A stretch of 64,000 nucleotides of DNA, taken from assembly GCA_905178155.1 (NCBI GenBank), contig CAJINV010000007.1, forward strand, positions 2,771,151 to 2,835,150, written 5' to 3'. A program made the translations under genes and the position numbers. Source of the stretch: Amoebophrya sp. A120. Its lineage: Eukaryota; Protista; Dinoflagellata. The notes beneath the pieces are model-generated. The model was given only the letters and a program-made list of their open reading frames with translations. It searched no databases and was not told where the DNA came from. Shown in pieces: positions 55,847 through 60,182 of this stretch. The number at the start of each line of letters is the position of its first letter. Positions within the stretch are counted from its first letter, which is position 1.

Positions 55847-58800
55847 TTACTTCTGCGCTTTTTTCATCGGCGATGATGTCGTCGACTTCTTCGTCGGCGA
55901 AGGACTTTTGTTTCGCTGCAGCTTCGCTGGCGAAGTGATTTTCGCCTTTTTGTTTTCAGTGGCGGCGGAAGCAGTTGGATCGCCCGTGTTAGTTTTTGTT
56001 TGCAAATCACTCGGCCTCGCTCCTGCAGCTCCTACCGCTTTCCGTTCCACCACACTTGTCTTATTATTTGTTGAAAGAAATAGTTCGTCGCAATTGGTGA
56101 AACTGCTGAAGCCCCAACTCCGTAAGACTTCCATCGTGGCCCAGGTGTCGATCCAGTAGCCCGTGTGGTGCACGAAGACGATGGCGGAGGACACTGCGAC
56201 TAGCGCCTTGTACTCGACGGAGGAAACTTCGTACGGCGAGTCAAAGATCGCGTTGAACAGGTTGATTGTAAGCATCCAGAAGTACTGCGGACCGTAGAGC
56301 AGGAGCTCGCAAAGAATACCTTTTTGTTTTTTTCACGTCGTCGTCGTGAAAAATCAACATCGCGCCATCCAGTGTTGAGTCGCTTGTTAGTTCCCACATT
56401 TGCATACCGCACACACTATCTAAATCAACAAATTTCATTTGTATGTTGGACATCAAGTTGATGTAAGTAACTACCGTATTCATACAGCACGACGGCGGCC
56501 CCTCCGCAGAAAAATCGCTTGACGCCCCAGCCAGACGTGTTTTCCTTGTTCGACGGCGCCAACCCGAAGACAATGTCGCGGTTCCTTCCCAGTAACAAAA
56601 TCACCAAGCCACCCAGCACCACGGCAAAGTGGTTGATACCCTCGAAAAGCTGGTACATTTGGAACTCCTCCCCAAACGCACGGGGGCGCTTGCACAGGTC
56701 CGCGAGAAAATCAATCGCGGCGGACTGCTGCGTGACGTAGCTGTTCAGCATGGTGTCGACGGAAATGGTTGGTAGGACCGGCAGGACCCAGGCCGTCATC
56801 AAAACGGTAAACTCCTGCTCCAAAGCCCGCCGCATGTCCGAATATTGCGTGCCGTTCTGACGCCCGAGGAAGACGCTGTGGATGAGATTGATGTTGGTGG
56901 CAAGGAAGATCGTATTTTTACTTTTAGCAACCATGTAGTTGACACATATCGCTTGGAAGCGAAACCAAAACGTAAAAAAGAGTAAGAGAAGCACCGCTCC
57001 AAAACATGAAATAAAGGTGGGACCCTAAACCCTGAAACCTAAACCAAACCCGGTCGCTCCAAAACATGAAACACATGCATACACGTTCCACGCGGCTCTG
57101 CGAGAGGTTTGCGGTGCTCTAAATTTGACCCTGTCTCCCGGAAAGCGATCCACCCAACGTAGTACGGGCGAGCAAGGGTGTGAAGGAACCCTCTGCGTTC
57201 GTGATGTGGACGAACGCCGCAAGAGGTGAACAAGGATCCTGGAGGTGCCTGGGCCGCCCTTTGCTGGGGGGGGCGACTTAGAGCGCACCGGCGGGCTCTA
57301 TATCCATGCTCCTGATGGCCGCATCAATGCGTCTTCGCTACGAGCGTCGTGTTGATTGATTTTGCCACGATCTTTCAATGTCGGCGGCGGGCTACAAGCC
57401 TTGTGCCGCGTTCATCGTGCATCCTGTATTCTAGCGGATGCTACTGCTCCATCTCTCCACAGATAGAGAGAGGAGGGGGGGAATCTACTACGAGCAGGCC
57501 CCCCGATGCCAGGGCAGCCTCTACGGCAGCAACCCGGAGGGCAGACGCGGACGCACGGGAAAGGCGCAGGGACCAGCCCTGCGAGGGCATTGCATGCGTC
57601 AACGCGCGTAATTAAGAGCGATGGGGGGCGCAGCCCAATCCTTCGGACGCGGGCCCATGGCTTTCAGGTGCTTGCTAGGTGGCAGGGAGGCGCATGGCAG
57701 TCGCGGGCCTTCGTGTCTCGCACATCTTTGCGCGCTCGCTGCGTGGCCCTGTATTGGCGTCCCGTTGTCGTATGCTCCGGGGCTGCACACGCAACCGATC
57801 GGATGCGACGGGCATGCCACAGGGGAGGCTACAGGGGCGCGGGCAATGTTTTTAGACGCTGAAGGCGGCGCGCGATGGTCTAGCTGCGAGCTAGACCTGC
57901 TGCGACGAGCGTTCCACGGACCGAACTAGGCCAGATGCTCCACAGGCCTCGCGTAGCTGAGGCGGATGCATTGTCTCACTCTGAGCGCGTTGCCAGTCGG
58001 TCCTGGCATCAGCTGGGTCCTAAAGACAGACCAAGTACTTTTGTGCTCCGAGCACATGGGCTCCCTTCCCTACAAGGGCGGGACCAAAACATGAAATAAA
58101 GTACATGAAATAGAGAAGGTGTTCGATGAATCCCGCAATGACGCTGTTGTAATACTGTCGTGTCGTTCTTCTGCTCGTACTCAAAGATGATGTTCTACTT
58201 TTAGTGGAGTCCGCAGCTACTCCCCCTTTGTCCTCCACTTTGGAACCATCCTCTGTCGACATCAACATTTGTCTTCTTGGAAAACCCCAAAAATGCATCA
58301 TGGGAATGGTGAAGATGAGATAACTTGCCGTCATACCCGCAGCTGGCTCGAACCCGATGCGCATCGCCCCGAGGAATGCGAAAGTTCCCAGTATGCCGCC
58401 CCACAGGTGTGTTTGGCTGTGAGTAAGGGTTTTGTGTCGGAACATCAAAACAACAGCAAAGAAATGCAGCGAGCGTTGTTAGGTCATGCGGGCGGCAGAA
58501 ACGTTTTGCAAGCGTTGAATCTCATACACACCTAACATGAGAAAAAAGGACAAATATATAAGTACAATTGCATCTTGAAAAATTCCCGGCAGCTCATGGT
58601 GTTTATCGCCAGCAGCAGCGAGAAGCCTGCTATTATGCCAACGCCAAAGACAATGTAGGTGGCGAAGGGCGTCTCTGCGGAAAACGCGACTAGGGGCGGG
58701 GAGGAGATTCCGGCAGATGATGCAGTGTGAGACTTAGCCGTCCCGACAGCTGCGTCATGATTACTGTAGTACCCCGGCGGCGGCGGGGCGGGTGCTGAAG

Positions 58801-58870
58801 CTGAAGCAGGTTCTTGTGAAGATGTCATTATAATCCGGCTGGAAGAGGAGGAGGAAGTAGAGGAGGACAT
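55847..58870 (-). CDS. Multi-pass membrane protein, multi-exon, interrupted by a 1.07-kb insert
   Basis: Built from ORFs 58532..58870, 58020..58448, 56425..56994 and 55847..56275. Deleting 57017-58083 plus one 18-bp repeat gives the in-frame HLLYFMYFISCFGAVLLLLFFTF. Other intron ends were not resolved. Confidence 0.65.
57017..58083. mobile_element. 1067-bp GC-rich, hairpin-rich non-coding insertion with an 18-bp TSD and telomere-like repeats
   Basis: CCAAAACATGAAATAAAG occurs at 56999-57016 and 58084-58101. CCCTAAACCCTGAAACCTAAACCAAACCC lies at 57023-57051. No credible ORF. Confidence 0.8.
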
Positions 58871-60182
58871 GGTGCCTTCTACTTTTTTGGTCTTGTATTC
58901 TCTAAGTCGCTCAAACGACAGTCTTGGTTTCTGCTACCACAATGCTAGAAGTGCGGTGGTGCGAGAAAGATAGAGAAGACGGAGCGCCAAGACATACACA
59001 CAGAAGAATTAGATATGTTCAAAAATTTCAACAGCATAGTAGCAACAGTCTCGGAGAGCACACTTCTCAAAACAAAGCCATCTACGTCAACGGTCTACCA
59101 GCTCCCTGCTCACTCTCTCGCCATCACTTTCGTCCCTTTCGTCTCTTTATTCACTTTCACCTCGGTATCGCAACGTGTGCAACTACATCATCTGTAATCT
59201 ACTCATGCTACCACACCGCGGTCGCTGCTCATTGGGCTTGAAAGAAATTCCCTCTCTCGACATCGTAATCTGTCGAGAACAGTACATGACTGTTCAGTCA
59301 CTGGAGTGTGCAAATTTGGTCGCCATGAAAAGCAACATTGGGATACTTAATTCTCAGAAAGATACTAGTTAGTATTCATCTGAAAACGTCGTACTTATCG
59401 TCTTCACAGAAGACGTCGCGTTCATCTTACAGCCTGCTTCCAAAAATTTTGTACAGTGTTCTTACGATGCATATGCTAGGGTGGTAGTGATTAAGATTTA
59501 GAAATGGACAGGATATGATGCGCACGGGGAAGTACTTTCCATAAAAATTTTCCCAGGATAATGATGGCTTTGGCTTAGCTCCACCACGACTGTAAAAATG
59601 AAAATGATTCACGTTTATCTGAAAAGAAACAAGAACTCTCGTGGTGAACCAGCAGCAAGCGTGTGGCCATACGGGAACGGACTCCTGTGCTCGTTGTCAC
59701 ACACTGCAAGCTGTGGTTTTGCGAATTACGGTTGGATAAAGGAAATTGAAAGGTTTAAACTAACTGGTGATGCAATGTTCTAACAATAGACGCTTGGGCT
59801 TGACATAAAGTGGGGGAAGAAAGATACTGCATGCACACGTGACCGCACCATACGCAGGATTTTGCGAAAGTGCCAGCTCACTGGTAAAAGTAAAATCGAA
59901 GACTGGGTGGTAAATTTATACGGGTAGACTGTTTGACTTTTGAGCGCCAGTGTCATAGAAACACTTCGGCAGTATCCCAGATGAAGGTAAAAATGCTTGT
60001 TTAAATGTGAAATTCACGTAAATGTTTTAGTAAAACGCATGTTTGTATGAACAATTCGAAAACGCCGGGAAGAGCAGCGGGCAAAATCAATCACGATCTG
60101 TTGCACTTGCAGCTGCCTACTTTTTCATCACTTCTCGAAAAACAAGAATGTCCTCATCGAAAAGAGATGCAACTTTGTCCCT

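What the first reader, a model, noticed from the sequence alone, without database searches (positions are those of the whole stretch)
56995..58101. 1.07-kb structured insert with an 18-bp TSD, telomere-like repeats and an internal copy of its own target site
Seen in sequence: the insert interrupts a predicted TM helix and is flanked by CCAAAACATGAAATAAAG. On the plus strand it opens with CCCTAAACCCTGAAACCTAAACCAAACCC (TTTAGGG-type). It then carries CGCTCCAAAACATGAAA (57055-57071), identical to host 56995-57011 and including 4 nt outside the TSD. The body is rich in stems: three hairpins capped by TGCGA (57096-57106, 57576-57588, 57877-57897), GCGTTCGT/ACGAACGC (57195-57217), GGTGCTCTAA/TTAGAGCGCACC (57113-57289), GGACCC/GGGTCC (57020, 58015), and a recurrent TGCTCC motif. 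Inference, three alternatives: a SINE- or ribozyme-like retroposed RNA with a telomeric tail; a telomerase-RNA-related copy captured during break repair (CTAAACCCT would be a TTTAGGG template); or an RNA that carries a guide to its target. It can be removed in frame either exactly via the TSD or via GT-AG 57025-58031.
Basis: partly seen in the sequence, partly recalled or inferred. Interest (0 to 1): 0.75.

Follow-up and report, generated by a model that had tools for sequence, protein, structure and literature searches.

The report
Two nested retroposons inside an intron
This is an ordinary case of jumping-gene nesting: a 1-kb non-coding element with about a dozen genomic copies sits inside the duplicated target site of a 38-base scrap of a second repeat family, likely from two successive RNA-copied insertions, and the whole thing is spliced out of the host message as a normal intron.

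Summary
The sequence features are real, but they are two elements, not one, and they lie in an intron. Element A (57073-58083, minus strand, 1011 nt) has 12 members in the genome; 9 of 12 carry their own 13-16-bp target duplication next to a (TGTA)n tail. A shares its first 21 nt and last ~290 nt with a 7.4-kb endonuclease/RT/RNase H LINE, so it is a bipartite non-autonomous LINE derivative. The 'internal target copy' is A's own left TSD plus 4 nt of flank, not a guide. The telomere-like 38 nt (57017-57054) are absent from all other A copies. They are the anchored end of a second, truncated repeat family (B, 29 matches) with their own 22-bp TSD, whose second copy A split. B's template strand is likely G-rich, so it is not a telomerase template. 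RNA-type contigs splice 58104 to 56876 (GT-AG), and an orthologue aligns without gaps across that joint, so no transmembrane helix is interrupted. No ribozyme was found; small 3' hairpins are conserved. Two sequence look-ups found no earlier scan note on either family. Verdict: new members of a known kind, low interest.

The parts
56876..58104 (-). Canonical GT-AG intron of the host gene (1229 nt now; 144 nt without the two insertions, similar to the 149- and 155-nt neighbouring introns)
   Evidence: joint 56875/58105 in contigs of runs X6, X3, X4; lengths; orthologue P0016 aligns without gaps across the joint
56995..57016 (.). Intact copy of the 22-bp target duplication of fragment B
   Evidence: sequence; begins CTTTA on the G-rich strand, like the NYTTA start in 12 of 16 called family-B TSDs
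57017..57054 (-). Fragment B: 38-nt anchored (likely 3') end of a second retroposon family with a telomere-like end; 35 nt are 97% identical to family copies
   Evidence: loose ends in run X1 show the same family continuing on both sides
57055..57071 (.).
57072..57072 (.). One extra base at A's tail junction (tail slip, untemplated base or later substitution)
57073..58083 (-). Element A: 1011-nt non-autonomous LINE derivative; 12 family members, 91-99% identical
57073..57084 (-). (TGTA)n-type 3' tail, shared with family C and the LINE
57096..57106 (-). Terminal 3-bp hairpin just before the tail; its position is kept in the LINE and family C with a U-A to C-G change
57116..57381 (-). Segment aligning to the LINE 3' UTR (70% over 287 columns to L179; 72% over 321 columns to L047, which extends through the tail to 57073)
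57195..57217 (-). Hairpin with both-side changes in 3 of the 6 pairs tested across families
58062..58083 (-). 5' head hairpin; 19 of 20 nt identical to the 5' end of the full-length LINE; present three times in family C
58084..58096 (.). Head-side 13-bp TSD of element A
58097..58101 (.). Remaining 5 nt of B's second TSD copy
58105..58416 (-). Host exon upstream of the intron
56472..56875 (-). Host exon downstream of the intron (its lower boundary may lie 3 nt higher)

Best explanation
The insert is a 1011-nt non-coding LINE derivative (A) sitting inside one copy of the 22-bp target duplication of a 38-nt fragment of another repeat family (B), likely the result of two successive target-primed reverse-transcription events in an AT-rich patch of a normal intron that is spliced out. 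Shown: family membership, TSDs, ends shared with a LINE, and splicing. Inferred step 1: an unknown RT primed at an NYTTA site, copied only the last 38 nt of a B RNA and duplicated 22 bp. Inferred step 2: the protein of the cognate APE-RT-RNase H LINE bound A RNA through its LINE-derived 3' end (hairpin plus TGTA tail), nicked 5 nt into the new duplicate and inserted a full-length copy with a 13-bp TSD. A's shared head is likely the LINE's internal promoter or start signal rather than a ribozyme (untested).
For: A: 12 of 12 candidates match the A-specific 604 nt; single-copy depth ~43 against ~460 over the A-specific part in run X1; 9 of 12 members have a TSD next to the tail. The LINE at G000:C3:8633794-8641194 has Exo_endo_phos, RVT_1 and RNase_H, the same head, a 70%-identical 3' UTR, the same tail and a ~14-bp TSD. 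The head motif occurs 36 times in the genome against 0 for the reversed control. B: 29 matches, many starting at the same end and stopping at variable points; TSDs of 11-31 bp called in 16 of 29, of which 12 begin NYTTA on the G-rich strand (L095 and L096 are duplicates); other short B insertions with TSDs exist (88 nt in L108, ~50 nt in L087); a 12-nt fold-back at the variable end of L098 fits a growing C-rich cDNA. The distance between A's two junctions (13-14 bp) is that family's own signature. Contigs run unbroken at equal depth across host-B and A-host, with no joint for an empty or single-insertion allele.
Against: A landing in a B TSD by chance is unlikely (my rough estimate 1e-4 to 5e-3); no other A, C or D locus held lies beside B, and no other B locus beside A or C. 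The one full-length cognate LINE found is frameshifted with an altered RT motif, and no coding partner of B was found. A's middle ~680 nt has no LINE source, only weak similarity to family C. No listed contig bridges 57052-57073 (110 pieces not shown). No stranded evidence exists for an A transcript.
Confidence: 0.8

Rival explanations
1. One coupled event: an RT copied 38 nt of B RNA, jumped to the 22-nt target overhang, copied 17 nt of it, then jumped onto A RNA; or a second particle hit the first insertion before it was repaired.
For: All target copies are free of mutations and A is 99.3% identical to two sister copies, so both insertions are young. Chance nesting is unlikely.
Against: A's junctions are 13-14 bp apart and start at an A/T-rich site like independent A copies; a template jump would match that only by coincidence. 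The B and A preferred motifs lie 5 nt apart in this patch, which favours repeated hits.
Confidence: 0.13
2. The 38 nt are a telomerase-RNA fragment or telomerase-added DNA captured during break repair; family B would be retrocopies of telomerase RNA.
For: The genome's telomeres are TTTAGGG/TTTGGGG, and a TAAACCCTGA word is kept in most B ends.
Against: The piece is not canonical repeat but matches B letter for letter. B ends differ among subfamilies. The target consensus sits at the anchored end and a fold-back at the variable end, which points to a G-rich RNA. No Rfam match. No source gene was identified.
Confidence: 0.04
3. A is an RNA that carries a guide to its target, or a self-cleaving ribozyme element.
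For: Full-length copies have a precise 5' end and a conserved head hairpin.
Against: No other copy has an internal target copy. Rfam and my HDV/hammerhead patterns found nothing (the patterns had no positive control). Family C keeps three tandem heads in full-length copies, which a self-cleaving head would cut off.
Confidence: 0.03

Closest known systems
Bipartite ORF-less non-autonomous LINEs: RIME/Ingi, NARTc/L1Tc, Bov-A, RTESINE (Kojima 2018, PMC5786205, passages)
   Same: No ORF; the extreme 5' end and the 3' end with tail are shared with an autonomous LINE; TSDs of similar length; no tRNA/7SL/5S head found.
   Different: Only 21 nt of 5' end are shared (60 nt in family C), and ~680 nt of middle are not from the LINE found. 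The LINE has a separate ORF1 and a (TGTA)n tail. No HDV-like signature was detected, unlike the Pr77 ribozyme of L1Tc/NARTc (abstracts). LINE clade not determined.
Stringent LINE/SINE pairs recognised through a 3' stem-loop plus microsatellite tail (eel UnaL2/UnaSINE; recalled, with the general point in the abstract of PMC5135761)
   Same: Shared 3' UTR, a small terminal hairpin kept with a compensatory change, and a short tandem tail.
   Different: A has no Pol III head; recognition by the RT was not tested.
Telomere-targeting LINE 3' ends (SART1Bm; PMC7265360, passages)
   Same: Family B ends in G-rich telomere-like words, as the SART1 3' UTR has GGUU/AGG words proposed to anneal to telomeric DNA.
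   Different: All B copies seen are interstitial, at NYTTA sites; no coding partner and no poly(A) tail were found.
Short interstitial telomeric insertions and telomerase-RNA captures at breaks (recalled, no call)
   Same: A short telomere-like piece flanked by a duplication.
   Different: The sequence is a degenerate family end rather than telomerase product, and its polarity is likely opposite to a template.

Membership tests
Bipartite non-autonomous LINE (RIME/NARTc type) | Multi-copy, no ORF, TSD-flanked, tandem or poly(A) 3' tail | tested here: met
Bipartite non-autonomous LINE (RIME/NARTc type) | 3' end shared with an autonomous LINE | tested here: met
   70-72% over ~290-320 columns and the same tail
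Bipartite non-autonomous LINE (RIME/NARTc type) | Extreme 5' end shared with the same LINE | tested here: met
   19 of 20 nt for A, 58 of 60 nt for family C
Bipartite non-autonomous LINE (RIME/NARTc type) | Whole body derivable by internal deletion of the LINE | tested here: not met
   A positions ~22-700 do not align to L179; weak similarity to family C only. So A is composite, not a plain deletion of this LINE copy
Bipartite non-autonomous LINE (RIME/NARTc type) | Mobilised in trans by the LINE protein | not testable with these tools
   inferred from shared ends and TSD length
SINE in the strict sense | Head from tRNA, 7SL, 5S or snRNA with a Pol III promoter | tested here: not met
   ARAGORN found 0 genes; no Rfam match; one A-box-like word and no B box
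Ribozyme-bearing retroposon (retrozyme, HDV-type) | Hammerhead or HDV-like fold | tested here: not met
   my own patterns lacked a positive control, and an unknown fold is not excluded
Ingi/Vingi, RTE or R2 clade (partner LINE) | RT phylogeny with labelled references | not tested
   homologues are only 25-29% identical and mostly unnamed; PDB matches to R2 and L1 are not clade-specific
Telomerase RNA | C-rich template on the transcribed strand of a single-source gene | tested here: not met
   junction polarity points to G-rich RNA; indirect, no stranded RNA data
Amoebophrya introner / non-canonical intron | Terminal inverted repeats, short direct repeat, non-GT-AG removal | tested here: not met
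   the host intron is GT-AG and extends beyond the insert on both sides

The most novel reading that the evidence does not exclude
Family B is the non-coding 3' end of an undescribed telomere-targeting retroelement of dinoflagellate relatives, whose coding master lies in unassembled chromosome ends, and fresh insertion junctions attract a second retrotransposon particle, so this locus records a coupled two-RNA insertion.
Probability: 0.1. Interest if true: 0.5.

Novelty: new member of a known kind. Interest (0 to 1): 0.2.

Why it matters
It adds two apparently undescribed retroposon families to a little-studied lineage: a young bipartite LINE derivative with its partner LINE, and a telomere-like-ended family without a known partner. 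The genome paper says most repeats are unclassified and does not use the word SINE in its main text (PMC7789003, passages; supplement not read, and it may list these repeats). Kojima 2018 names only four LINE clades that yield ORF-less bipartite elements, so placing this LINE could extend that list. The case also warns that nested TSDs can mimic a 'guide' and that T-rich, stop-free introns can mimic membrane helices. It does not reveal a new mechanism.

Tried and rejected
Rfam on the region and on six family loci: no match within the elements. tRNA scan empty. HDV/hammerhead patterns empty, without positive control. RNAalifold on the shared 3' region gave a weak consensus (covariation term -0.49, 2 of 33 pairs with both-side change). 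The long-range stem 57113/57289 is not supported across families (72.0% paired against 70.6 shuffled, covariation 277 of 500). One search tested the same stem with two brackets misplaced and is superseded. A coding partner for B was sought in the loci around RT matches and B copies (34 RT-centred regions chosen from 106 matches) and by searching B's distal part; none was found. B is not part of the two assembled subtelomeres held, beyond the repeat words. A variant end word had one other genomic hit, unrelated in its flank. No RNA holder is on record; X3, X4 and X6 are RNA by guess, and contigs cannot show strand. The three 2026 raw-read runs do not cover the host exons at 90% and say nothing on this locus. 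Pfam gave no family over cut-off for the host protein. Literature searches listed no paper on SINE-like elements or telomerase RNA of this lineage; only listings and abstracts were seen.

Full report
Observation. All listed motifs are at the stated places. A genome search with the insert returned 41 matches (40 of 55 candidates scored). The long matches begin at query position ~74, not at 18, and end at 1084, so the repeated unit is 57073-58083 and the first 56 nt of the insert are not part of it. The organism is labelled Amoebophrya sp. A120 by the source of a protein 100% identical to a LINE of this genome. The telomeres at two contig ends are TTTAGGG with TTTGGGG variants, as the genome paper reports (PMC7789003, passages only).

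Element A. Read on the minus strand it starts TCCCGCCCTTGTAGGG and ends in (TGTA)n. Its specific 604 nt match 12 of 12 candidates, at 91-99%, and depth in run X1 is about ten times single copy. Nine of the 12 have their own direct repeat beside the tail (longest exact match 13-16 bp; two copies carry one mismatch); two are cut at the 3' end and one by an assembly gap. In the window the repeat is 13 bp (57059-57071 and 58084-58096). The 'internal copy including 4 nt outside the TSD' is therefore this TSD plus the next 4 nt of flank.

Partner LINE. A second family (C, ~1130 nt) and an older set (D) share A's 3' ~300 nt. One match (L047) lies behind an RNase H reading frame. It led to a 7.4-kb element at G000:C3:8633794-8641194 with ORF1 and an ORF2 holding Exo_endo_phos, RVT_1 and RNase_H domains. 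This element starts with A's head (19 of 20 nt; 58 of 60 nt with C), has a 3' UTR 70% identical to A's 3' end, the same tail and a ~14-bp TSD. It is frameshifted and has an altered RT motif, so the active master was not seen. Kojima 2018 (PMC5786205, passages) describes non-autonomous LINEs that keep only the 5' and 3' parts, such as RIME and NARTc. A works like these, but it fails the plain-deletion test because its middle does not come from this LINE copy. It is not a strict SINE: no small-RNA head was found.

Fragment B. A 17-nt telomere-like pattern occurs 9 times in the genome against 0 for the control. Seven of the 8 other hits continue into one shared sequence, which finds 29 matches. 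Many copies are anchored at the telomere-like end and stop at variable points up to ~530 nt. TSDs of 11-31 bp were called in 16 of 29. Twelve of the 16 start NYTTA on the G-rich strand at the anchored end (two of them duplicates); the other four calls, including the window's, were displaced by the script, and no consensus is seen at the variable end. One copy has a 12-nt fold-back at the variable end. Both points indicate, by inference, a G-rich RNA copied from its 3' end with 5' truncation. The window's piece is 38 nt between two copies of a 22-mer, the second split by A. Other very short B insertions with TSDs exist. No coding partner was found.

Host gene. Contigs of three RNA-like runs skip 56876-58104 with GT-AG ends. 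The spliced frame is open for 496 codons from its first Met and aligns without gaps at the joint to an orthologue from a transcriptome record (65% over 357 columns). Without A and B the intron is 144 nt, a multiple of three, stop-free and T-rich, which explains the apparent helix. In run X1, contigs cross host-to-B (56300-57051) and A-to-host (58059-58700) at equal single-copy depth with no alternative joint, which argues against a chimera of two alleles. The 57052-57073 link is not among the listed pieces.

Structure. A as a whole folds little better than shuffles. The three UCGCA-capped hairpins exceed chance (2 of 1000), the hexamer repeat does not (345 of 1000). On 26 aligned 3' regions, six local hairpins taken from the window copy are 88.7% paired against 87.0 shuffled, with both-side changes only in the 57195-57217 stem. 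The terminal hairpin before the tail is kept with a U-A to C-G change, and the long-range stem is not supported. These counts are inflated by relatedness and by my choosing the stems from one copy. They fit recognition signals of a LINE 3' UTR. Three tandem heads in full-length C copies argue for a promoter-like rather than a self-cleaving head (inference).

Mechanism and odds. Two successive target-primed insertions in one AT-rich intron patch, B then A: 0.8. One coupled event: 0.13, kept because chance nesting is unlikely, both insertions are young, and this is the only A-B adjacency among the loci held. Telomerase capture: 0.04. Guide or ribozyme: 0.03.

Novelty. The families appear undescribed in what I searched (scan look-ups by sequence 47 and 48 were empty). 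The kind of element and the nesting are well known. Earlier unreviewed notes describe other retroelements nested in introner-type introns of this genome; this case differs in lying in a canonical intron.

Noticed in passing
L043, L044, L046, L048, L203, L210 (e.g. G000:C12:1105630-1106763): Family C, a ~1130-nt sister of A with three tandem copies of the LINE head and its own TSDs
   Followed up: partly
L012, L014-L022, L024-L027: Older family D sharing the 3' ~375 nt of A, with a different upstream part; 5' ends not defined
   Followed up: partly
window 57306-57447 in raw-read runs X9-X11: Reads from a diverged relative of the repeat carry poly(T) loose ends near 57306-57315, i.e. a polyadenylated RNA ending inside a related copy, probably in another strain
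   Followed up: no
L003, L023, L179: Two A copies share a 95%-identical satellite-like flank, and the full-length LINE sits in a similar ATGTA-rich satellite that resembles the tail; a possible target preference or a duplication
   Followed up: partly
L038:5001-5985 and L042:2880-3590: An A copy and a C copy are each interrupted by a further insertion of about 1 kb and 0.7 kb
   Followed up: no
L148:1450-1833: A family-B copy runs into at least 13 tandem 30-bp repeats and a 5.4-kb gap; beyond the gap lies a Copia-like pol region. The gap could hide B's upstream part
   Followed up: partly
L124-L163: Many non-LTR families with long open RT frames and different microsatellite tails, such as (GTCA)n, (GAT)n and (GAACT)n
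   Followed up: no
L053 (G000:C398): An RT with a YVDD motif on a very short contig that looks like a bacterial group II intron protein; possibly a contaminant (recalled resemblance)
   Followed up: no
window 55847-58888, minus strand: Host gene: ~496-aa membrane-type protein without a Pfam family, with one homologue found at 65% identity
   Followed up: partly
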